Virus record (IMG/VR): IMGVR_UViG_2609460060_000003
Span: 1 to 64,000 of that record
Origin: a virus
Taxonomy: Duplodnaviria; Heunggongvirae; Uroviricota; Caudoviricetes
Length of the DNA stretch: 64,000 bases
Reading direction: 5' to 3' (one strand)
How positions within the stretch are numbered: position 1 is the first letter of the stretch; every line of letters begins with the position of its first letter. A program made the translations under genes and the position numbers. This document shows positions 2 to 52,069 of the stretch, in pieces. The notes below the pieces were generated by a model that saw nothing but the letters and a program-made list of their open reading frames with translations, had not been told where the DNA came from and made no database searches.

Positions 2-2057
<2,056 letters not shown>

Positions 2058-2070
2058 CTACCAAAAATAA

Positions 2071-2088
2071 CCCCGGCAGCTGCCGGGG
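2071..2088. terminator. Bidirectional intrinsic terminator between convergent pro and lysis genes
   Basis: Perfect palindrome CCCCGGCAGCTGCCGGGG with an A-run upstream and T-rich tract downstream. Confidence 0.6.
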
Positions 2089-2104
2089 TTCTCGTTAACT
2101 ATTA

Positions 2105-2362
2105 TCACCTTCGCCTGCGTGCCATATATTTGCGCACCGCGCGGCCTGGACAATCTGAAGCTGTTTCTTTCTGCTGCATCAATCTCGCAGCCATGCTCAA
2201 AAATGTCAGGCACAGCCGAAGCCCGGCATACAATAGCGGTTCCAGTGGCCACGTCTCATTGAGCACATATACCGCCATGAAAATCGAGTCAAAAACTATC
2301 GCCGCCAGCGATAACTTCATTGTCGAAAGTCGGCGGAGCTGCCGGAGTTTATTCATTGACAA
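2105..2362 (-). CDS. Small membrane protein downstream of the endolysin (lysis accessory candidate)
   Basis: 85 aa, one hydrophobic segment (LSLAAIVFDSIFMAVYVL), basic C-terminus; overlaps the lyz stop by 14 nt. Confidence 0.35.
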   Translation of the reverse strand: MSMNKLRQLRRLSTMKLSLAAIVFDSIFMAVYVLNETWPLEPLLYAGLRLCLTFLSMAARLMQQKETASDCPGRAVRKYMARRRR

Positions 2363-2906
2363 GCCCCGTCAGGCAAAGCTGGCGTTCTTTTTCACGGCGA
2401 ATCTTTAAACCTCGCAGGGGCACGCCGTTACTGTTCACGAAATCAGGGAGATGGTTACACATATTCACCCATTCCCCTTTCTGCGCCCACTTGTGGATGG
2501 ACGTTTCTACTCGCATGCCTCGCGCTTTGCTGTAGTAGGTCCGTAAGCTATTGCATCCCATATTGAATGCCGCGCTTGTCATTGCACTGAAGGCATTATC
2601 GGGCATGTCTTTGCCCCGGAAGTGCTGATTAATACAGCGTTCAGCGATCAGGATATTCTTTTCCCAATCAGCGGCGATTTGCTGGTCGGTTTTTCGCACA
2701 CCCGGCGTTACCCCGTGTGTATTACCGATCCCGTCAGTCCATACCCCCGCCGGGCACATGTATGGATCACGTCGGCAACCTTCAGCGTTACCAATCAGCT
2801 CAAGCCCCGCCTGGTTGGTTCGCACATTGCCATTACCCATCACGATGGTAATCATCACCGCGATAGCGCAAATTGCACCGCCTCCTGCGGCTGTTTTTCC
2901 CTTCAT
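2349..2906 (-). CDS. lyz: SAR-type endolysin (lysozyme)
   Basis: Begins MKGKTAAGGGAICAIAVMITIVMG (Gly/Ala-rich signal-anchor-release segment) followed by a lysozyme-like domain; GAGG RBS 7 nt upstream of ATG at 2906; the longer track ORF from 3005 rejected as the start. Confidence 0.85.
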   Translation of the reverse strand: MKGKTAAGGGAICAIAVMITIVMGNGNVRTNQAGLELIGNAEGCRRDPYMCPAGVWTDGIGNTHGVTPGVRKTDQQIAADWEKNILIAERCINQHFRGKDMPDNAFSAMTSAAFNMGCNSLRTYYSKARGMRVETSIHKWAQKGEWVNMCNHLPDFVNSNGVPLRGLKIRREKERQLCLTGLVNE

Positions 2907-3039
2907 AAAGACCTCATAAGCGAATTTTTTACGCTCCAGGACAAACACCCATTCACAGCCAATACCGACTGACTCGATCCCTTTAGAAGGCACAGGATAA
3001 TGCAAATCACTTGTTAGCTACGTTTCAAAGATATACATT

Positions 3040-3056
3040 ATTGCTCTAATTAATTT
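3040..3056. promoter_or_regulatory. C1 repressor operator-like site (ATTGCTCTAATTAATTT) between divergent lyz and ssb
   Basis: One mismatch to the P1 C1 operator consensus ATTGCTCTAATAAATTT. Confidence 0.5.
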
Positions 3057-3075
3057 ATTTTATTAGGTAAGATAA

Positions 3076-3564
3076 GTGGCACAACGCGGTGTAAACAAAG
3101 TCATCCTGATTGGTACCCTGGGGCAAGACCCGGAGATCAGGTATATACCAAATGGCGGAGCGGTCGGAAGACTCAGCATCGCAACGAATGAATCATGGCG
3201 CGACAAGCAAACGGGCCAACAGAAAGAGCAAACAGAATGGCATAAAGTCGTTTTGTTCGGAAAACTTGCTGAAATTGCGAGTGAGTATTTACGAAAAGGT
3301 TCTCAGGTCTACATCGAAGGGAAACTTAAAACCCGTAAGTGGACAGATGACGCCGGTGTAGAACGTTACACGACGGAAATTATCGTCAGCCAGGGCGGCA
3401 CCATGCAAATGATCGGCGCTCGCCGCGACGATTCACAATTCTCAAATGGCTGGGGGCAGTCAAACCAACCTCAAAACCACCAGCAATACAGCGGTGGCAG
3501 TAAACCTCAGAGCAACGCCAATAGCGAACCTCCAATGGACTTTGAAGACGATATTCCATTTTGA
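3076..3564 (+). CDS. ssb: Single-stranded DNA-binding protein
   Basis: GTG start; OB-fold N-terminal region closely resembling E. coli SSB, Gly/Gln-rich linker and acidic tail ending DFEDDIPF. Confidence 0.95.
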
Positions 3565-8952: not shown

Positions 8953-9318
8953 TTATGCTGCCTCTTTAATGTTGGCGGCTATCCATGCCGCCGTGTGCTG
9001 TTTAACCTGGTCCAGGTCGATGTATGTGCCAACATATTGACTCAAATCCTGCAAGGTACCGATAAATGCATCGGTGCTCTGATCGACGAATTTATCAGCC
9101 AGGAAATCAGCAACCAGTTTTGGCACACCATCATGTACCGCAGGTTGTTTTTCCTCGCCACTACTGCCGCCGGACACACCGTACCCCATCTGTTGCATGA
9201 TCTGGTCAATTTCATCGCTGATATCCAGCAACTCCATGCCACTAGCGGTAGCCGCTTTGGACATCAGAGCATCCAACTTATCGCTGAGATCCATTAACTC
9301 AATAGCTGATAGTGTCAT
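8953..9318 (-). CDS. ddrA: DdrA-like small protein of the dar operon
   Basis: 121 aa; start overlaps the darA stop; position between darA and ddrB. Confidence 0.5.
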   Translation of the reverse strand: MTLSAIELMDLSDKLDALMSKAATASGMELLDISDEIDQIMQQMGYGVSGGSSGEEKQPAVHDGVPKLVADFLADKFVDQSTDAFIGTLQDLSQYVGTYIDLDQVKQHTAAWIAANIKEAA

Positions 9319-11234
9319 GCCGCTACCCCCGCTTTCTGGATTGCTACCAGCAGATCAGCCAGGTGGCGAGCAGCGCCATTAACCAGCTCTTCGTTTTCCT
9401 CAAAACGCCCGGCAGCCTGAAGGGCTGCAATCGCTTCCCGGACATTACCCCGGGCGTTACGGATCTCCGCCATGTCAGTGCTTTGCATATCCATCACGTT
9501 ATTGAGATATTCAATGGCTTTATTAGCCTCTGCATCTGCTTCGCTAACCGTTTCATCAGGCTGTGCCGGGGCAGGTTCTGGCTGAGTAATCTCACCGACT
9601 TCGGCCTGCAATGCATTGATCATGCTCTGCACCATTTTCTCGGTGCCAGCGCCCCCCGGAAACGCAATATTGGGGAAAGTTTTTTGAAACTGAGTTTTCA
9701 GCATTACGCGGAACTCGTCTGGTGAGCTGGTGGCCAGATCCAGAGCTTTTTGTGCATATTTGCCAAACGGACCATTAGTAAGTGTCTTCGCCAGGAAGTC
9801 GAAAGAATCCTCGCGAGGCAATAACTTCAGGTCGTACTCACTCATTTGCTGATCAGAAAGCGGGGTATCGTAAGTAGCAATGCCGTAGCGTGCATATTCA
9901 TAATACGGGTCACCTTCATCAGGGCGCGGCAGAATTGCTTTGTTACCTTCAGGTATTGCGCCAGGGGCCGCCGGACGCATTTGCAAGGCATATCGATATG
10001 CACCTACAGAGACTTCTGGTTCAGGCGAAGAGCTACCGGTATCCTCCGCTGGTTCAGGTTCGACGTTTTCCGGTTTATGTTCTTCTGGTTGGACCAGATA
10101 TTCCGATACATTACCCGCTTTATAGGCTTTAAACAGCTTGCCGATCGCATCTGCCATGTCCACACCCTGTATGGATTTAGCCTTGATCATGTACACGCTG
10201 CCATCCGAATCGGTTAACTGGATATACCCTTCGCCGTCCTCAATGAATTGCTTCATTGATGCTCCATTACTGAGCGTCACTTCCCCGTTCATATGCATAC
10301 GATTTTTGATACTGGCAAGGCGATCCGTCAGCGCGCGCGAGTGCCCACCAGTCATCCCCGCTGGATCAATGGTATCGCGCCCACCTGTGCGATTGAGCTG
10401 ATCAATCTCCGTCTGCAAACGCTCATTCTCTTCATAAAGAGAATCCGCTTCCGATGCAACAGCGTTAATTTTCTGCTCCAGATCTACCTTCTGCCCTTCT
10501 ACCGCTGCCACCTGATCCGCGAGGTCGCTCATGGCATCCTCTTTCTGGTCACTGTCAGCCTGTAGTTGGGTTATTTCATCAACCAGGGCTTTTTTCTTCT
10601 TCTGCGCACGCTGGAATTTTGCCGAGTTTTTCTCTGCAAGGTTGGCAAGTTTCATGGTGACCTGCGCCAGCGTCATATCACGTCCACTCATCGGAGCAAC
10701 GGTATGAGTAACGTCTTTTTTATTCAGTAAGAACTGGAAAGCAATCAGCGTATCGCTATTGGTGATCCGGTTTTCCGCTGTCGGGCTATGAAACAGAATG
10801 CTGATAGTCTGACCATCACTGAGCGGAATAATGGCTGGCAGGACCGGCAGCCCGTTAACGTTACGTGCCCGGCCAATTTCAGCCCCGCCGATCGCGCGCG
10901 CGCCGTTCTGGGCCACATCCCCCGTTTTATCACTCCCCGCAGAGATTCCGGTACCATTCAGCTTCTGGTTCAATGCCCGGACAAATGCCTGCATGGTCCG
11001 GTGTAACTGCAAACGAGTAGAACTAATCGCCTCCAGTAAATCCGTAGCACACCAGTGGATCGGCGTGTCATAGAAGAACGTAGCCTCGATTTCCTCCAGG
11101 GTGTTGGATTCCGTCATCAGATAGCGGTCCTCACCGGCCATTAATGCGCGATATTCATCATCAGTCACTGGCGGGGGAAGCACGTCAAGCCCAGGCTTGA
11201 TCGTCACCCCTTTATTGATATTGAACTGTTCCAT
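9315..11234 (-). CDS. darA: DarA-like anti-restriction virion protein precursor
   Basis: 639 aa ORF at the expected operon position with the size of P1 DarA; start overlaps the hdf stop (TAACATG). Confidence 0.65.
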   Translation of the reverse strand: MEQFNINKGVTIKPGLDVLPPPVTDDEYRALMAGEDRYLMTESNTLEEIEATFFYDTPIHWCATDLLEAISSTRLQLHRTMQAFVRALNQKLNGTGISAGSDKTGDVAQNGARAIGGAEIGRARNVNGLPVLPAIIPLSDGQTISILFHSPTAENRITNSDTLIAFQFLLNKKDVTHTVAPMSGRDMTLAQVTMKLANLAEKNSAKFQRAQKKKKALVDEITQLQADSDQKEDAMSDLADQVAAVEGQKVDLEQKINAVASEADSLYEENERLQTEIDQLNRTGGRDTIDPAGMTGGHSRALTDRLASIKNRMHMNGEVTLSNGASMKQFIEDGEGYIQLTDSDGSVYMIKAKSIQGVDMADAIGKLFKAYKAGNVSEYLVQPEEHKPENVEPEPAEDTGSSSPEPEVSVGAYRYALQMRPAAPGAIPEGNKAILPRPDEGDPYYEYARYGIATYDTPLSDQQMSEYDLKLLPREDSFDFLAKTLTNGPFGKYAQKALDLATSSPDEFRVMLKTQFQKTFPNIAFPGGAGTEKMVQSMINALQAEVGEITQPEPAPAQPDETVSEADAEANKAIEYLNNVMDMQSTDMAEIRNARGNVREAIAALQAAGRFEENEELVNGAARHLADLLVAIQKAGVAA

Positions 11235-12695: not shown

Positions 12696-13550
12696 TGTGC
12701 GCCCAGCATGGGCGCGATCTTGGAGGTGAAAGCCCTCCCGCGAGCTGACCACAGCGAGCGAAATGAAGTGCAACTGCGTGAGGGCGACCGGGCGTGGGGA
12801 GGAAGCACGGAATGAACCCGTGAGCCGATGAACGAGAATCGGATATGAGGCGCGATGGAGCAAGGCGAGCAGGCACATCACTGCGAAGCTTTCGTGGTCA
12901 AGTCGAAGTCGCGCAGATCCGACGGTTGTGCGGGGAAGGATCGCGTTCTTACCTGGGGAGTTCTCGCCTCATGCCTGAAAGGGCAACGTCGTAAGACGGA
13001 GCGAGAAGTCAGCAGAGGCCGTAGTAGTCAGGACTCCGACGAAGGGCCGAACGAGAAGGAAAGCCAGAAGATATGACTCTTGACAGGACATTGCGTCAGA
13101 AGCCGAGGAAGCCCGGTACGGACCCGCATGCCGGGTGGTGTGGCAGGGGCGCAGCCCTTGTGCTCCCCCCTATGCCGATCAAGCAGAACATTGTGCTGGG
13201 CCTCTGACGCAGCTCCTTGATGGTCTTGGCATCGTGCTTAAGTGGATTGGTGTCGTCCCTGATAGGATCATGGAGGCAGAATGAAACTCAAAAATCCGGG
13301 ATAGCACGCAAAACAGGCTGCACAAAAAGCGCAGGTTGCGTAGGAGTGAAATCCCGCTCCCAAAAAATGGTGCAGAAGTTGCGGCAGTGGTCATCCGACG
13401 CACTGGAAAATAACAAACCCGCCGTGACCAGAATCGGAGGCCTGAGGGAGTGACCGAAAAACCGGACAACCCAGGCAGCAAATACCCGCTGGATGAGGCA
13501 TGGTTCCGGCAGATAATACCGAAAACCGCCAGACACACTGGATAATCAGT
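12696..13550 (+). mobile_element. Group II intron-like structured RNA segment (no intact reverse-transcriptase ORF; 3' boundary uncertain)
   Basis: Starts GTGCGCCCAGCATGGGCGCG (group II 5' GUGYG signature); GC-rich and GNRA-rich; CCGTAGTAGTCAGGACTCCGACGAAGGGCC resembles a domain II/III region; only short Arg/Pro-rich ORFs on both strands. Confidence 0.45.
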
Positions 13551-13599: not shown

Positions 13600-14163
13600 A
13601 TGCTGAACAATAGAAATATGACTATTAATGAACTTAAAGACTGTATTCACTATGAAGTAATTGGTAGCGAGCGTCCTTTCTCTTGGCGAAAAGCAATTGT
13701 TCGCGCAATAAAACATAGAAGAGTTCGTTATTTATTTTGGTGGCGCATATCAAAATATCTTTTTGATAAAGGCGGATACAGGCGAAAGGTTGCAGGGAAA
13801 ATAGAACGCTTCATTCTTGACAAATACAATGTAACCGTTCCCTTAACGGTAAATATAGGGAAAGGGTTTGACATATCTTATCTCAATGGCGTTGTTATCG
13901 CTCACAAAGTCACAATCGGTGAAAATTGTTCAATTAAGCCCGGAGTAACTATTGGACTTCGCGGGGAATTTAATGACATGGATATTGTTATAGGAGATAA
14001 TGTGACCATTGGTTGTAATGCCACCATTCTTGGTGGCAAAGTGCGTATAGGAAACAATGTCACAATAGGTGCTCATGCATTGGTATTGCATGATATTCCT
14101 GATGATTCAACATTCATCACTAAATTTCAGTCTGAAGTTATCTGCTCGTCCTCCCGCACATAA
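13600..14163 (+). CDS. Hexapeptide-repeat (left-handed beta-helix) acetyltransferase, WcaB/CysE-like
   Basis: Tandem [LIV]-G-x4 repeats ([16 protein letters not shown]...[33 protein letters not shown]); AT-rich coding sequence; 3' end overlaps convergent tfa by 37 nt. Confidence 0.8.
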
Positions 14164-29291: not shown

Positions 29292-29320
29292 TTGACCTTT
29301 TAATCGTTCAGGCTTATAGT
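29292..29320 (+). promoter_or_regulatory. Sigma-70 promoter of the immI (c4-icd-ant) transcript
   Basis: TTGACC, 17-bp spacer, TATAGT. Confidence 0.6.
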
Positions 29321-29439
29321 TTCGCCGTCGTAGCAAATTCTGCGACCGGGTTTAGCAGCCTGAATGATTGTGCGGACAGCCGCAGATATCCGATATTGCG
29401 GTATTTTTGTGTCCGTAAAACCGCGTTACGCCCAAATTA

Positions 29440-29515
29440 TGGTGGGGCGTGATGGGGAGGCTTCGGCCTGCTGGTTTCACAATCGCCAGTCTGCTAACCC
29501 CGTCACGTCCTGCCA
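29440..29515 (+). ncRNA. c4: c4-type antisense repressor RNA (approximate boundaries)
   Basis: Contains CACAATC and CTGCTAA, complementary to the motif GTTTAGCAGC...GATTGTG that occurs upstream (29350-29372) and again over the icd RBS (29519-29556). Confidence 0.5.
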
Positions 29516-29567
29516 CCTGTTTAGCAGCGGGTAGCAGGTTGTTAAACCTGATTGTGAGGCCGTAACT

Positions 29568-31813: not shown

Positions 31814-32659
31814 ATGCTGGCTAAAGTCACTTTCCTGAGCTGTATAACGATGAGCGATTTTACTTTTTCTGGCTATGAATTGGCCTGCTTTGTAACACAC
31901 TCCGGTCTATCCCGTAGCGCCGGGCATATCCTGTCGCAATGTGCAAATCTAGCGGCAACAACCAGTGAATACTTCATTCACAAGCCTCACCGCCTGATCG
32001 CGGCAGAAACTGGTTATAGCCAATCAACCGTCGTTCGTGCATTCCGTGAAGCTGTAAACAAAGGAATTCTGTCTGTAGAGATTGTTATCGGCGATCACCG
32101 TGAACGTCGCGCTAACCTGTACCGGTTTACACCATCCTTTTTGGCCTTCGCACAACAAGCCAAAAATGCGCTGATTGAAAGCAAATTAAAGATCTCTTCA
32201 GCGGCAACCAAGGTTAAAGCTGTTCTCGCTAAGACATTGGCTTTATTTAATTTTTTATCCACACCCCCATGTCAAAATGATACCCCCTCCCCCTGTCAGG
32301 ATGACGTGGCAATAAAGAATAAGAAGTCACAAGTTAAAAAAACAAAAAGATCAGTTTCCGGCGGTGCCGGAACGAGCAGACTCAAAAAATTGACTTCATG
32401 GATCGCTGAGGCAAAAGCAAAGGCTGACAATCTGCGGTTATCCAAAAAGCGCGCTCAAAAACATGAGTTCAAGCAGAAAGTAGAGGCGGCAGCGCGGAAA
32501 TATGCTTACCTGAAGAACAAGCGTTCTCCTGATATTGGCGGGGTATCAAACTTCGATAATTTGCCGCATTGCATGACGGTAAACGAAGCTCTTAATGCGG
32601 TTTTAGCCAAAAATAAAGATAACGAACAATGGGGTATACCGGCAGGATTCAGAGGGTGA
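31814..32659 (+). CDS. repL: Lytic replication initiator RepL-like protein
   Basis: 281 aa directly downstream of kilA; start may instead be the internal ATG at 31850. Confidence 0.55.
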   Translation: MLAKVTFLSCITMSDFTFSGYELACFVTHSGLSRSAGHILSQCANLAATTSEYFIHKPHRLIAAETGYSQSTVVRAFREAVNKGILSVEIVIGDHRERRANLYRFTPSFLAFAQQAKNALIESKLKISSAATKVKAVLAKTLALFNFLSTPPCQNDTPSPCQDDVAIKNKKSQVKKTKRSVSGGAGTSRLKKLTSWIAEAKAKADNLRLSKKRAQKHEFKQKVEAAARKYAYLKNKRSPDIGGVSNFDNLPHCMTVNEALNAVLAKNKDNEQWGIPAGFRG

Positions 32660-32709
32660 TAGATTGCTCTAATCTGGAGTCACCTGGCGTTTTCAGTTTG
32701 AGGTCGGAG

Positions 32710-32955
32710 ATGCAATCTGATTTTTTACAGTTAGCGATCGCTTTTGCAGGATATGTTTGTATTGGCTTCTGTGTATACATGTTCAGCCGAAAAATGCTTG
32801 TCGATATCGACCGCAAAGAACAAGCAGAGGAGATCTTAGTATGGATTTTCTTTGGCGCGGTCTGGCCATTAGGGATCATGTTTGCTGCAACATTTCTTCT
32901 GATGTGGATATTCACCCTTCCAGGTGATTTCTATAGAAAAAAAGCCAGACATTGA
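32710..32955 (+). CDS. Small membrane protein
   Basis: ATG 32710 with GGAG RBS; two hydrophobic segments. Confidence 0.4.
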   Translation: MQSDFLQLAIAFAGYVCIGFCVYMFSRKMLVDIDRKEQAEEILVWIFFGAVWPLGIMFAATFLLMWIFTLPGDFYRKKARH

Positions 32956-33078
32956 TACAATCGTTGCGGGTGCTTGAGGCTATCTGCTTCAGGCATTACC
33001 CGAAAAGCAGATAGAAGAAAGCCCCAGATAACATTACGCGTCCTGCAAGACGCTTAACATTAATCTGAGGCAATATCT

Positions 33079-33285
33079 ATGCTTAGCATACGTAGATTAG
33101 CCTCTTACCGACCAAAAGGTCAAGGAGAAGCAGGCTATGAAGCAGCAAAAAGCGATATTAATCGCTCTGATCGTCATCTGTTTAACCGTCATTGTGACGG
33201 CACTGGTAACGAGGAAAGACCTCTGCGAGGTACGAATCCGAACCGGCCAGACGGAGGTCACTGTCTTCACAGCCTACGAATCTGA
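33079..33285 (+). CDS. mok: mok-like overlapping frame of the hok module
   Basis: 68-aa ORF beginning 58 nt upstream of hok and overlapping it in a different frame. Confidence 0.4.
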   Translation: MLSIRRLASYRPKGQGEAGYEAAKSDINRSDRHLFNRHCDGTGNEERPLRGTNPNRPDGGHCLHSLRI

Positions 33286-33292
33286 AAGGTAA
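33137..33292 (+). CDS. hok: Hok/Gef-family type I toxin
   Basis: MKQQKAILIALIVICLTVIVTALVTRKDLCEVRIRTGQTEVTVFTAYESER matches the Hok pattern (TM helix, TRKxLCE, AYES); GGAG RBS; below the track 60-aa cutoff. Confidence 0.85.
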   Translation: MKQQKAILIALIVICLTVIVTALVTRKDLCEVRIRTGQTEVTVFTAYESER

Positions 33293-33364
33293 GAGACCTG
33301 GCGGGGAGAGATCCTCGCCACTCTTCGTGTGTCAGGTATCCTCAATGCACCCTTTCCTCTCCAA

Positions 33365-33392
33365 ATAAAAAAGCTCCCGAAGGAGCTTTAAA
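33365..33392. terminator. Bidirectional intrinsic terminator
   Basis: AAAAAAGCTCC-CGAA-GGAGCTTTAAAAT hairpin with flanking A/T runs between hok (+) and the convergent gene (-). Confidence 0.6.
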
Positions 33393-33408
33393 ATACAAGG
33401 GATGACTC

Positions 33409-33918
33409 TTAATCCCACTCAATCCAGTTGTAGACGATACGAAGTGACGGGCGCACAGCGGCAGTCACATCTTCGGTACTAAAGTCGATTGCATCACTGT
33501 AGATTTTGCAGTCCAACATTTCAATTGTTGTAGCAGCTTTTGTCACAGCGTTAACCCCGGAAGATTTGGATTCAGGGGTAGCAGCCATCGTGATATCAAC
33601 ATAGTCCTTCGCCGCAATGCGATCTTTAATGAACTGAAGAATATCGCCTTCGATAGTCTCCACGCACTGGACCTGGATTTCCCCAGAGTTTCGAATTGGA
33701 CCGTGCTGGTTGAACTTCACACCATTCGGACCATAGTCCTCCACATCCTCGCGGGTCATTTCAGGAATTTGCGACGTGCGAACCAGTACGCTGATATCTT
33801 CATGGCCTGCAAAAGTGAGCTGGAATTCAGAAGATACCAGTCGTTCGCCTTTGGCCGCGTTGGCAGTATAGCGGCCCTTAATAAATTTACGGTTTCCCTT
33901 AGTGTTATTGTGCCCCAT
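33409..33918 (-). CDS. Tail tube-like structural protein
   Basis: 169 aa adjacent to the sheath-like gene block. Confidence 0.35.
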   Translation of the reverse strand: MGHNNTKGNRKFIKGRYTANAAKGERLVSSEFQLTFAGHEDISVLVRTSQIPEMTREDVEDYGPNGVKFNQHGPIRNSGEIQVQCVETIEGDILQFIKDRIAAKDYVDITMAATPESKSSGVNAVTKAATTIEMLDCKIYSDAIDFSTEDVTAAVRPSLRIVYNWIEWD

Positions 33919-50382: not shown

Positions 50383-50457
50383 GATGGTGTAGCTCAGCGG
50401 TAGAGCAGTTGGCTGTTAACCAACTGGTCGGTGGTTCGAATCCACCCACCATCGCCA
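50383..50457 (+). tRNA. tRNA-Asn (anticodon GUU)
   Basis: Cloverleaf folded by hand: acceptor GATGGTG/CACCATC, D-arm GCTC-AGCGGTA-GAGC, anticodon loop CTGTTAA, T-arm GGTGG-TTCGAAT-CCACC, encoded CCA. Confidence 0.85.
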
Positions 50458-50462
50458 CTTTA

Positions 50463-50549
50463 GGGGAGTTAGTCCGTAGGGGTAGCGGGGTAGACTGTAA
50501 ATCTACTGTCATTGCGACTCGGGTGGTTCGACTCCATCACTCCCCACCA
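50463..50549 (+). tRNA. tRNA-Tyr (anticodon GUA), class II with long variable arm
   Basis: Perfect 7-bp acceptor stem GGGGAGT/ACTCCCC, anticodon stem-loop GTAGA-CTGTAAA-TCTAC, variable-arm hairpin, T-loop TTCGACT, encoded CCA. Confidence 0.7.
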
Positions 50550-50553
50550 AATT

Positions 50554-50629
50554 GCCGGTTTAGCTCAGTTGGTAGAGCGCCTGCCTTGTAAGCAGGATGT
50601 CAGCGGTTCGAGTCCGTTAACCGGCACCA
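50554..50629 (+). tRNA. tRNA-Thr (anticodon UGU)
   Basis: Acceptor GCCGGTT/AACCGGC, D-arm GCTC-AGTTGGTA-GAGC, anticodon loop CTTGTAA, T-loop TTCGAGT, encoded CCA. Confidence 0.85.
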
Positions 50630-50720
50630 ACACAACAGGTAAGGGTATTTTGCGACGTCGGAGATCGCCGTGCTTGGCAGAGGGTTCGAATCCCTACGAA
50701 GTACCCTTACCGTTGTGATG
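50630..50720 (+). other. tRNA-like / long-hairpin element (non-canonical; contains a T-arm-like GAGGGTTCGAATCCCT)
   Basis: CACAACAGGTAAGGGTA pairs with TACCCTTACCGTTGTG about 55 nt downstream; no canonical cloverleaf could be folded. Confidence 0.3.
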
Positions 50721-51360
50721 AAGTGCAGCTCTTTGAAGCAACCAGAAGATAAGCATCTGGCTTCACAACATAAACCGCAGGAACGACCAATAAACGGTAG
50801 TCCGTATGGAGAACACCCCGTTGAGGAAGAGGCCTGGCCGGAACCGTAACCGGCACTACAACGTTGAGAACACTGGCGTAACGGGGTCATATCCCAATCT
50901 ACGAATAAATGTTGCGTTGCAGCGTGACAACCAGTGTTCTCAACATTGTGGTGAATGCACAGGCTGATGTGCCGCAACTACAGTAGTGCGCGCTTTGCGG
51001 GGCTTGCTACAACCCTGTGTCGGAGTTCAGCACCGACCATCACAGTTTGATTCTCTGGCATGAGCATAACGCTGAAATAAGTCCAGTCTGGTGCGGCCCG
51101 ATCACCCGCCGTTAGCTCCACGAAACGGAGCACGTAACAGGTAAGAGCATTCTCCTGTAACGGGTTCATATCCCAATCTACAGGTCCACCAGGAATGCTC
51201 TTTCCGTTGCGGTGAATGCGGCTAAGCGCACGCGGAACAGTTAAAACAATCCTCCTTAATGGTTAAACATTCCGGCGTTAATTGTTAACTGGTTAACGTC
51301 ACCGGGAGGCACTCGGCACCGCAATCTAATAAATATGTCACTTTTATTGAGGGATAACCA

Positions 51361-51795
51361 ATGTTCGGTAAATTGTTCGGCAAGAAAGTCGCTTCTGCAA
51401 AAGTAGAGCTGAAAAAAGTTGAGAATCGCGATCTGATGGAGGCCATCATCGGTGGCTGTTTGTTGGTGTCTGCCGCTGATGGTGAAATCGAAAAAGAAGA
51501 AACAGCGAAACTTGATCAGCTTGTCCGCTCTAATCCGCGTCTTAGTCATTTTGGTAACGAAATTACTGCAACAATTACCCGCTTTACCGAGCAACTGGAA
51601 GCTGGCTTCCGTGTTGGTCGCATGAATATCCTTCGCGAAATTGAAGATATCAAAAACGATCCAAAAGAAGCGGAAGAAGTATTCGTTAACATGCTGACAA
51701 TTGCAGAAGCGGACGGTGAAATCGAGCCAGCAGAACACAAAGTACTGGAAGAAGTAGGCCGTCGTTTAGGTCTTCGTGTGGAAGATTATCTGTAA
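51361..51795 (+). CDS. tciA: TerB-domain protein (TciA-like)
   Basis: 144 aa with two AADGEIE repeats typical of TerB. Confidence 0.75.
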   Translation: MFGKLFGKKVASAKVELKKVENRDLMEAIIGGCLLVSAADGEIEKEETAKLDQLVRSNPRLSHFGNEITATITRFTEQLEAGFRVGRMNILREIEDIKNDPKEAEEVFVNMLTIAEADGEIEPAEHKVLEEVGRRLGLRVEDYL

Positions 51796-51959
51796 TGGCA
51801 AGCAAGGCACGTATCGCAATCGCCATTGGTTTTCTCTTGCTGTCCGTGCTGGTGGATTTCACCAGCACAATCCTGTCAGTTTTATCGGACGGGGCGTTGG
51901 TGGCAGTAGCTGTAACATTGGTATGGCCGATATTAAAAACAGCTTCTAAGGATCAGTGA
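51795..51959 (+). CDS. Small membrane peptide (TciB-like), translationally coupled
   Basis: 54 aa, ATG overlaps the tciA stop (TAATG); two hydrophobic segments; below the track cutoff. Confidence 0.4.
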   Translation: MASKARIAIAIGFLLLSVLVDFTSTILSVLSDGALVAVAVTLVWPILKTASKDQ

Positions 51960-52066
51960 TGGGCTTCTGGGATTTTGCTGACAAGCATCCAATTGTTCTC
52001 GTTGTCATTGCTGGCATAGTTGTAGGCGGTATTGCTGGCGTCATAGAAGCACTCAGGAAACAGTAA
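51959..52066 (+). CDS. Small membrane peptide (TciC-like), translationally coupled
   Basis: 35 aa, ATG overlaps the upstream stop (TGATG); single TM segment. Confidence 0.35.
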   Translation: MGFWDFADKHPIVLVVIAGIVVGGIAGVIEALRKQ

Positions 52067-52069
52067 TCC

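What the first reader, a model, noticed from the sequence alone, without database searches (positions are those of the whole stretch)
33020..33392. hok/mok type I toxin module inside the phage-plasmid
A 51-aa ORF has the Hok/Gef pattern (TM helix, TRKxLCE, AYES) and is overlapped by a longer mok-like frame starting 58 nt upstream, with a strong terminator hairpin downstream. The antisense Sok RNA would be encoded on the opposite strand around 33020-33140 but I could not define it. P1's classical addiction module is phd/doc, which is not in this window, so this is an additional or alternative post-segregational killing module.
Basis: partly seen in the sequence, partly recalled or inferred. Interest (0 to 1): 0.55.

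Follow-up and report, generated by a model that had tools for sequence, protein, structure and literature searches.

The report
Ordinary hok/mok/sok toxin-antitoxin module
This is an intact copy of the well-known hok/sok "kill the cell that loses me" RNA-controlled toxin module, sitting in a known variable spot of a P1-like phage-plasmid and already annotated as hokD in hundreds of near-identical plasmids, so it is real but ordinary.

Summary
Window 33137-33292 (+) encodes a 51-aa Hok/Gef toxin (Pfam PF01848, E=1.3e-21). The leader 32968-33142 matches Rfam RF01794 at 114 bits (cut-off 59). A 68-codon mok frame starts 58 nt upstream, exactly as in plasmid R1. The full module is larger than reported, 32934-33392. 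It comprises the hok promoter, a 5' tac box that pairs with a 3' fbi box (33340-33352), a 3'-UTR hairpin and a bidirectional terminator hairpin. It runs on the minus strand from about 33087 to 33013, with promoter TTGACC-18-TAATCT (33123-33094). The module lies between repL and bplB, replacing P1's rlfA-rlfB-pmgF, a published variable region. The same sequence (>=99%) occurs in about 360 plasmid records, where RefSeq names the gene hokD. hokD-type loci occur in 4745 of 5426 complete E. coli genomes. Near-identical relatives also carry phd/doc, about 6-10 kb beyond the window end, so hok/sok is an additional module, not a replacement. Novelty: already known. Interest: low.

The parts
32934..32961 (+). 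hok promoter: -35 TAGAAA (32934-32939), 16-nt spacer, extended -10 TGaTACAAT (TACAAT 32956-32961)
   Evidence: Consensus scan, 9 of 12 matches with TG. The -10 aligns with TAGAAT/TATGAT of the other hok loci, 6-7 nt before the conserved mRNA start. Function is inferred.
32968..32979 (+). hok mRNA 5' end and tac box (GGGUGCUUGAGG)
   Evidence: This is position 1 of the Rfam model. It aligns with the R1 hok mRNA start GGCGCUUGAGG. It pairs with 33340-33352 in the MFE fold of the full transcript and in the consensus fold of 9 loci.
32980..33014 (+). 5' leader hairpin (CTATCTGCTT / AAGCAGATAG)
   Evidence: 10-bp stem in the MFE folds. 100% of cells are paired across the 9 loci, and 2 pairs show changes on both sides.
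33013..33087 (-). Sok antisense RNA, about 71-77 nt: 5' tail 33087-33072 complementary to the mok start region, long hairpin 33071-33021, tail GGGGCUUUCUUCU
   Evidence: Maps onto the annotated 71-nt sokW of 933W (L001 1554-1624, equivalent to window 33017-33087) and onto R1 Sok in alignment A1. The fold is -31.5 kcal/mol, z=-5.45, with 0 of 200 shuffles as good. Both ends are inferred by homology and were not measured.
33094..33123 (-). Sok promoter: -35 TTGACC (33123-33118), 18-nt spacer, -10 TAATCT (33099-33094)
   Evidence: Aligns with R1 TTGCGC-17-TATCCT. It also aligns with the sokW -10 TAACCT, whose mutation abolished antitoxin activity (PMC8621323). It scores 8 of 12 to consensus, so the automatic scan did not flag it.
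33067..33285 (+). mok: SD GAGG 33067-33070, ATG 33079, 68 codons, stop TGA 33283-33285; overlaps hok out of frame
   Evidence: ORF list. The start lies 58 nt before the hok ATG, the same distance as in R1. The start codon sits inside the Sok-complementary stretch.
33099..33137 (+). ucb (AGCCUC..., 33099-33109) and dcb (33124-33137, covering the hok SD GGAG 33124-33127) boxes
   Evidence: Nearly invariant block across the 9 loci. They pair with each other in the leader fold and in the consensus fold. tac can pair with ucb at -15.3 kcal/mol.
33137..33292 (+). hok toxin gene, 51 aa
   Evidence: Pfam HOK_GEF 1.3e-21; NCBIfam Hok family 1.7e-13, below the curated cut-off; 46 of 51 residues identical to HokW and 23 of 51 to R1 Hok.
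33299..33320 (+). 3'-UTR hairpin (TGGCGGGGA-GAGA-TCCTCGCCA), probable barrier that sets the 3' end of the processed mRNA
   Evidence: 9-bp stem. 5 of its 9 pairs show changes on both sides among the 9 loci, and 97.5% of cells are paired. The role is inferred.
33340..33352 (+). fbi box (CCUCAAUGCACCC) pairing with the mRNA 5' end
   Evidence: 12 bp with one bulge. The duplex is -21.0 kcal/mol, and 54 of 5000 shuffled 3' UTRs do as well. It is kept in all 8 hokD/hokC-type loci.
33370..33389 (.). bidirectional terminator hairpin shared by hok (+) and the convergent bplB operon (-)
   Evidence: Terminator scan reports it on the minus strand with a T-run. Hairpin energy is -11.0 / -11.4 kcal/mol. 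bplB ends at 33409.

Best explanation
Window 32934-33392 is an intact hok/mok/sok type I toxin-antitoxin module of the hokD/hokW subgroup. It is carried as cargo in the repL-bplB variable region of a P1-like phage-plasmid. It most likely works as the R1 prototype does. A weak constitutive promoter makes a stable hok mRNA whose 5' end (tac) is locked to a 3' box (fbi), so the mRNA is neither translated nor bound by Sok. Slow 3' trimming back to the 3'-UTR hairpin removes fbi, and the leader refolds to expose the mok start site. In plasmid-bearing cells the short-lived antisense Sok RNA (about 33087->33013) pairs with that site, which blocks mok translation and therefore the coupled hok translation, and triggers RNase III cleavage. 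In a cell that has lost the plasmid, Sok decays and the processed mRNA pool is translated. The 51-aa Hok then inserts in the inner membrane and kills the cell. The module therefore adds a second, RNA-based addiction system to the protein-based phd/doc pair of the same replicon. Shown here: the sequence elements, their homology and their predicted pairings. Inferred: transcription, processing, toxicity and the stabilisation phenotype.
For: Hok domain. The leader matches the Rfam covariance model at 114 bits. mok start, spacing and frame are identical to R1. tac-fbi pairing appears in the MFE fold and in the consensus fold. Over five named helices, 95% of cells are paired against 40-46% when partners are slid, and 11 pairs change on both sides against 1-3; 0 of 500 shuffles reach this. 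The Sok hairpin has z=-5.45. The Sok -10 is homologous to the tested sokW -10. The nearest studied relative, hokW-sokW (87% nt identity, Hok 46/51 residues), is a proven toxin/antitoxin pair. The locus has no IS insertion or deletion, unlike many sibling copies. phd/doc sits on the same replicon in near-identical relatives.
Against: Nothing was measured for this copy. The Sok promoter scores only 8 of 12 to consensus and was not flagged by the scan. On the hok strand only UUU follows the terminator hairpin. MFE folds of 3'-truncated mRNA give a local 5' hairpin rather than the expected tac-ucb pairing. The tac-fbi duplex alone is only moderately unusual, with 54 of 5000 shuffles as good. The structure tested was derived from the same nine-sequence alignment. 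About half of related plasmids appear to carry IS-interrupted or deleted versions, so the module is dispensable.
Confidence: 0.85

Rival explanations
1. The molecular module is the same, but its main role is in the lytic cycle. On prophage induction Sok disappears and Hok damages the membrane early, which advances lysis and increases phage release, as reported for hokW-sokW of Stx2 prophage Sp5.
For: In Sp5, induction removed sokW RNA and HokW appeared about 1 h before endolysin. Deleting the locus halved phage release (PMC8621323). The window copy is the same subgroup, 87% nt identity. It sits right behind the C1-controlled lytic replicon repL with a remnant C1 operator core, and it converges on a late tail operon.
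Against: Sp5 is an integrated lambdoid phage, while this element is a plasmid prophage for which loss at cell division is a real risk. No link between P1 induction and this locus has been shown. The Sp5 effect was only two-fold.
Confidence: 0.25
2. The module mainly serves as abortive-infection defence. Shut-off of host transcription by an invading lytic phage stops Sok synthesis, and Hok kills the infected cell.
For: R1 hok/sok on a high-copy plasmid lowered T4 plating efficiency and plaque size, as summarised in PMC8621323. Phage-plasmids often carry defence cargo in variable regions.
Against: The reported effect is weak and depended on high copy number, whereas P1-like plasmids are low-copy. 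Nothing in the locus differs from standard hok/sok.
Confidence: 0.1
3. The copy is a silent passenger or relic, like most chromosomal hok loci of E. coli K-12, carried along by recombination at a hotspot with no current function.
For: hokD-type loci are nearly ubiquitous: 4745 of 5426 genomes. K-12-type strains keep only the 3' half. Sibling P1-like plasmids show IS421 insertions between hok and fbi, and deletions of hok.
Against: Every known element is present and in register in this copy. Both reading frames are open. Helices keep pairing through compensatory changes. The intact form is >=99% identical in hundreds of plasmids.
Confidence: 0.1

Closest known systems
hok/sok (parB) of plasmid R1, the prototype type I post-segregational killing system
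   Same: Same parts in the same order: promoter, tac, leader hairpin, Sok target hairpin, mok SD and ATG, ucb/dcb, hok, 3' hairpin, fbi, terminator. The mok ATG lies 58 nt before the hok ATG and out of frame in both. The Sok promoter is at the same place.
   Different: Hok is only 23 of 51 residues identical, and the leader 33-72% depending on segment. The Sok hairpin is 13 nt longer in the aligned stretch (the Rfam model shows a 16-nt loop insertion). The -10 is TAATCT with an 18-nt spacer, against TATCCT with 17 nt in R1. The carrier is a phage-plasmid, not a conjugative plasmid.
hokW-sokW of Stx2 phages Sp5 / 933W (PMC8621323; AF125520)
   Same: Same subgroup: 87% nt identity over 388 nt, Hok 46 of 51 residues, Sok hairpin 96% identical. 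Toxicity, Sok antitoxin activity and the Sok -10 were tested there.
   Different: In 933W a 1-nt difference puts mokW in frame with hokW, giving an N-terminally extended Hok; here mok is out of frame. The Sok 5' tail / mok start stretch is only 64% identical. That host element is an integrated lambdoid prophage.
hokD (relF) and other chromosomal hok loci of E. coli
   Same: RefSeq names this very protein HokD. Chromosomal prophage copies are 87-90% identical over the whole module.
   Different: K-12-type strains match only query positions 184-413, that is hok to fbi without promoter, tac, mok start or Sok. The window copy is complete.
phd/doc of phage P1 (type II addiction module)
   Same: Same expected biological outcome, killing or arrest of cells cured of the plasmid prophage. 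It is present on the same replicon in near-identical relatives.
   Different: It is a protein antitoxin and Fic-family toxin pair, unrelated in sequence and mechanism. It is not in this window.

Membership tests
hok/sok type I toxin-antitoxin family | Small Hok/Gef membrane toxin (Pfam PF01848) | tested here: met
   E=1.3e-21, 76.3 bits against a cut-off of 22, residues 7-47 on profile positions 2-42 of 42; PHROG 251 at 1.9e-31.
hok/sok type I toxin-antitoxin family | Conserved structured hok mRNA leader / Sok region (Rfam RF01794) | tested here: met
   114.3 bits against a gathering score of 59, E=3e-25, full model 1-157 at 32968-33142. The model lies on the hok mRNA strand, so it proves leader homology rather than antisense transcription.
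hok/sok type I toxin-antitoxin family | Overlapping mok frame with its own SD, whose start region is the antisense target | tested here: met
   ORF 33079-33285, GAGG 8 nt upstream, start codon inside the Sok-complementary stretch, and the same 58-nt offset as R1.
hok/sok type I toxin-antitoxin family | cis-encoded antisense RNA gene with its own promoter and a terminal hairpin | tested here: met
   Met at sequence level only. It is homologous to R1 Sok and to the annotated sokW. The hairpin has z=-5.45. The promoter is TTGACC-18-TAATCT, and its -10 aligns with the tested sokW -10.
hok/sok type I toxin-antitoxin family | Long-range 5'-3' end pairing (tac-fbi) that keeps the full-length mRNA inert | tested here: met
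   12 bp, 32968-32979 with 33340-33352, in the MFE fold. It is kept in all 8 hokD/hokC-type loci. Duplex -21.0 kcal/mol, with 54 of 5000 shuffles as good.
hok/sok type I toxin-antitoxin family | ucb-dcb pairing and the tac-ucb switch after 3' processing | tested here: inconclusive
   ucb-dcb is predicted in the consensus and leader folds, but its columns are nearly invariant. tac-ucb complementarity exists at -15.3 kcal/mol. MFE folds of truncated RNA prefer another local hairpin.
hok/sok type I toxin-antitoxin family | Unstable Sok, stable hok mRNA, Hok toxicity and post-segregational killing | not testable with these tools
   Needs Northern blots, rifampicin chase, induction and plasmid-loss assays. 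Toxicity and antitoxin activity have been shown only for the relative hokW-sokW.
hokD/hokW subgroup | High nucleotide identity over the whole module and the extended Sok hairpin | tested here: met
   87-90% identity to 933W, Rac and chromosomal hokD loci. The hairpin segment is 94-98% identical, and the extension is shared by all of them but not by R1 or hokC.
phd/doc type II module | Phd antitoxin and Doc (Fic) toxin genes | tested here: not met
   tblastn of the window with Phd and Doc (sequences from memory) found nothing better than E=0.2. The genes lie outside the window in relatives.

The most novel reading that the evidence does not exclude
In P1-like phage-plasmids the hok/sok cargo next to the lytic replicon may be wired to the lysis-lysogeny switch, so that induction triggers Hok and helps phage release, as in Sp5, on top of plasmid addiction. 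The frequent sibling alleles that keep only the hok promoter, leader and Sok-coding stretch but lack hok may act as Sok-only 'anti-addiction' genes in competition between incompatible P1-like plasmids.
Probability: 0.12. Interest if true: 0.45.

Novelty: already known. Interest (0 to 1): 0.13.

Why it matters
It matters little beyond correct annotation. It shows that many natural P1-like phage-plasmids carry two unrelated addiction systems, RNA-based hok/sok and protein-based phd/doc. This helps explain their stable carriage, including carriage of resistance genes. It also supplies coordinates for the Sok RNA and the regulatory boxes, which database records omit because they annotate only the hok CDS. 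The turnover seen at this site (intact, IS421-split and hok-deleted forms) could be a small natural experiment on how toxin-antitoxin modules decay.

Tried and rejected
1. The automatic promoter scan on the minus strand found no Sok promoter. I kept the homology-based site because the R1 and sokW promoters are equally far from consensus.

2. MFE folding of 3'-truncated mRNAs ending at 33330, 33339 and 33345 did not reproduce the textbook tac-ucb pairing. I therefore left that step as inferred.

3. tblastn for Phd, Doc and a second Hok in the window found only the one Hok.

4. The colinearity check of the window against NZ_LR882977 by local BLAST failed twice because those loci were not exported to the script machine. 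I used hit coordinates in phi456 and LR882977 instead.

6. Literature searches for hok in P1-like phage-plasmids found no paper that discusses this module. One paper lists a plasmid carrying it with only 'P1 addiction system'. Another names rlfA-rlfB-pmgF as variable region 5 without mentioning hok.

7. I considered whether the 'sok' Rfam hit on the plus strand meant that Sok is encoded on the plus strand. I rejected this because the model spans the hok leader up to the hok AUG.

Full report
**What is in the sequence**

The region 32934-33392 holds a complete hok/mok/sok locus.
- The 51-aa ORF at 33137-33292 reads MKQQKAILIALIVICLTVIVTALVTRKDLCEVRIRTGQTEVTVFTAYESER.
- It matches Pfam HOK_GEF at E=1.3e-21, 76.3 bits against a cut-off of 22. 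It matches PHROG 251 'MokW-like host killing' at 1.9e-31. It matches the NCBIfam Hok subfamily at 1.7e-13, which is below that model's strict cut-off.
- A 68-codon frame (33079-33285) starts 58 nt upstream and out of frame with hok. GAGG lies 8 nt before its ATG.
- Rfam RF01794 ('sok') matches 32968-33142 on the plus strand over the whole 157-position model, at 114.3 bits against a gathering score of 59, E=3e-25.
- That model lies on the hok mRNA strand and ends at the hok AUG. It therefore establishes homology of the leader, not the existence of an antisense transcript.

**RNA anatomy**

- A sigma-70-like promoter, TAGAAA-16-TGaTACAAT, ends at 32961. That is 7 nt before GGGUGCUUGAGG, which aligns with the R1 hok mRNA start.
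- The MFE fold of 32968-33392 (-165.1 kcal/mol) pairs the extreme 5' end 32968-32979 with 33340-33352. This is 12 bp with one bulge, the tac-fbi lock.
- The same pairing is in the RNAalifold consensus of nine loci.
- The duplex is -21.0 kcal/mol, and 54 of 5000 shuffled 3' UTRs reach that value. On its own it is only moderately unusual, but it is at the same place in all eight hokD/hokC-type relatives.
- The apparent breaks in the R1 row come from misalignment of its divergent fbi box.
- I counted pairs over five named helices: tac-fbi, the 5' hairpin, the Sok-target hairpin, ucb-dcb and the 3'-UTR hairpin. 95% of cells are paired, against 40-46% when partners are slid by 1-3 columns. 11 pairs change on both sides, against 1-3. 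0 of 500 shuffles reach these values.
- The caveat is that this structure was derived from the same nine-sequence alignment.
- The 3'-UTR hairpin 33299-33320 carries most of the compensatory changes, in 5 of its 9 pairs.
- The hairpin 33370-33389 is real. It is a classic terminator only for the convergent bplB operon on the minus strand. On the hok strand only UUU follows it, much as in R1.

**Defining Sok**

The R1 hok/sok sequence I recalled matched real plasmids at 100% over 433 nt. I used the database copy (L007). Three lines of evidence place Sok:
- Alignment A1 puts R1 Sok opposite window 33011-33087.
- The 71-nt sokW annotated in phage 933W maps to 33017-33087.
- The minus strand there folds into a long hairpin (33071-33021) followed by GGGGCUUUCUUCU. 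The fold is -31.5 kcal/mol, z=-5.45, with 0 of 200 shuffles as good.

The promoter is TTGACC (33123-33118), an 18-nt spacer, then TAATCT (33099-33094). It aligns with R1 TTGCGC-17-TATCCT. In the hokW-sokW study, the 'promoter-less' mutant that lost antitoxin activity changed TAGGTTA to CCGGCTC (primer YO-421). This defines the sokW -10 as TAACCT, the exact counterpart of TAATCT here. The site scores 8 of 12 to consensus, which is why the scan did not list it.

**Context**

- The window is a P1-like phage-plasmid. It has the C4 antisense RNA and its targets at 29.3-29.5 kb, repL at 31814-32659 and bplB at 33409-33918 on the minus strand.
- In reference P1 the repL-bplB interval holds operator Orlf, then rlfA, rlfB and pmgF.
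- Homology with P1 stops at window position 32673, inside that operator.
- In this window the interval instead holds an 81-aa predicted membrane ORF of unknown function (32710-32955, PHROG 3772) followed by hok/sok.
- A survey of P1-like phage-plasmids lists rlfA-rlfB-pmgF as variable region 5, and lists phd and doc among 21 extremely conserved genes (PMC9603915).

**How common it is**

- The 461-nt locus is >=99% identical in 359 plasmid records, nearly all non-mobilizable E. coli plasmids of about 90-100 kb. RefSeq annotates the CDS as hokD.
- It is also in P1-like phages phi456 and vB_EcoM-Ro157c2YLVW and in three 'P1' isolates, one of which is annotated MokW.
- It is 87-90% identical to hokW-sokW of 933W/Sp5, to Rac hok and to chromosomal prophage hokD loci.
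- 4745 of 5426 complete E. coli genomes have a hokD-type match.
- K-12-type strains match only from hok to fbi.

**phd/doc**

- No phd/doc is in the window (with query sequences from memory).
- Plasmid NZ_LR882977 has a 100% identical hok locus at 9295-9450 and phd/doc at 69489-70090. Its paper lists only 'P1 addiction system' for it.
- Among phage records with the full module, phi456, MH422554, MH445380 and MH445381 also have phd/doc. Ro157c2YLVW is not in the phd/doc hit list.
- In phi456, which has the window's orientation, phd/doc lies about 37 kb downstream of hok, roughly 6 kb past the window's end.
- So hok/sok is an additional module, not a replacement.

**Mechanism**

I commit to the R1 paradigm, which is established knowledge of the family. 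The full-length mRNA is inert, and slow 3' processing removes fbi. The leader then refolds, and hok translation is coupled to mok translation. Sok binds the mok start region, and RNase III cleaves the duplex. Sok decays in plasmid-free cells, and Hok kills by membrane damage.

For the nearest relative, hokW-sokW, several points were shown experimentally: toxicity, Sok-dependent rescue, partial dependence on RNase III and Hfq, and inner-membrane location. A role in phage release after induction was also reported (PMC8621323). For this copy only the sequence-level features are shown. Expression, processing and phenotype are inferred. MFE folds of truncated RNA did not reproduce the tac-ucb switch, so that step stays unverified, although tac-ucb complementarity is present at -15.3 kcal/mol.

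**Differences from relatives**

- Hok is 46 of 51 residues identical to HokW and 23 of 51 to R1 Hok.
- mok is out of frame here, as in R1, whereas a 1-nt difference makes mokW an in-frame extension of hokW.
- The Sok hairpin of the hokD/hokW group, including this copy, is 13 nt longer than in R1 in alignment A1. The Rfam alignment shows a 16-nt loop insertion.
- Among hokD-type loci the Sok 5' tail / mok start stretch (33072-33093) is the most variable leader segment, at 41-86% identity against 94-98% for the hairpin. This would fit a specificity role where several hok loci share a cell. That reading is an inference.

**Verdict**

The finding is real and correctly interpreted, but it is a textbook system. 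The exact sequence is already in hundreds of annotated records. Novelty: already known. Interest: low.

Noticed in passing
window-equivalent 33304-33314; locus L014 (NZ_LR130553.1) 1845-3240: Many plasmids carry this same hok allele with an IS421 (IS4 family) inserted in the loop of the 3'-UTR hairpin, with an 11-bp target duplication GGGAGAGATCC. The insertion separates hok from fbi and the terminator. About 30% of rows in an evenly spaced sample of 630 matching plasmids show this form. From memory, IS elements also sit next to the K-12 hokA, hokC and hokE loci.
   Followed up: partly
locus L004 (NZ_CP103764.1) 2440-3460; window-equivalent 33101-33366: A sibling P1-like variant keeps the 81-aa ORF, hok promoter, tac, Sok-coding stretch and Sok -10, but the segment from ucb to fbi, including hok, is replaced. 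The replacement is about 760 bp with a 198-aa minus-strand gene of unknown function (PHROG 7522). This form makes up about 13% of the sampled rows. Other plasmids keep only the 3' end (33304-33395). Whether the hok-less form still makes Sok is untested.
   Followed up: partly
window 32660-32680: Directly after the repL stop codon lies ATTGCTCTAAT, the left part of P1's C1 operator Orlf/Op55. Homology with reference P1 ends inside the operator, so the recombination junction of this variable region cuts the operator.
   Followed up: partly
window 32710-32955 (+): An 81-aa ORF with two hydrophobic stretches (108 aa from an upstream ATG that overlaps the repL end) has no Pfam or NCBIfam match and hits PHROG 3772 of unknown function. 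Its stop codon overlaps the extended -10 of the hok promoter. It travels with hok/sok in the P1-like plasmids.
   Followed up: partly
window 33079-33137 and alignment A1 columns 198-258: A single-nucleotide indel at window position 33120 decides the mok frame. With it, mok is out of frame with hok (window, Rac, MS6198; the same arrangement as R1). Without it, mok is an in-frame N-terminal extension of Hok (933W, O111, SC467, PhiR12_3).
   Followed up: partly
window 12778-13047 (+): Rfam finds group II intron domains D1-D4 (96.9 and 46.8 bits), but no reverse-transcriptase-sized ORF follows. The next ORF (13600-14163, 187 aa) is annotated serine acetyltransferase in identical plasmids. The intron part also matches Sinorhizobium plasmids, so this looks like an intron fragment in the tail-fibre/holin region.
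   Followed up: partly
window 50383-52145 (+): There are four tRNA genes: Asn-GTT, Tyr-GTA, Thr-TGT and Met/Ile-CAT. From memory, reference P1 is described with three, so the Tyr gene at 50463-50549 may be extra.
   Followed up: no
window 29314-29520 (+): The P1 immunity C4 antisense RNA (69.6 bits) and its a1/b1 target (54.6 bits) are present upstream of icd-ant-kilA-repL. This confirms the P1-like immI region.
   Followed up: no
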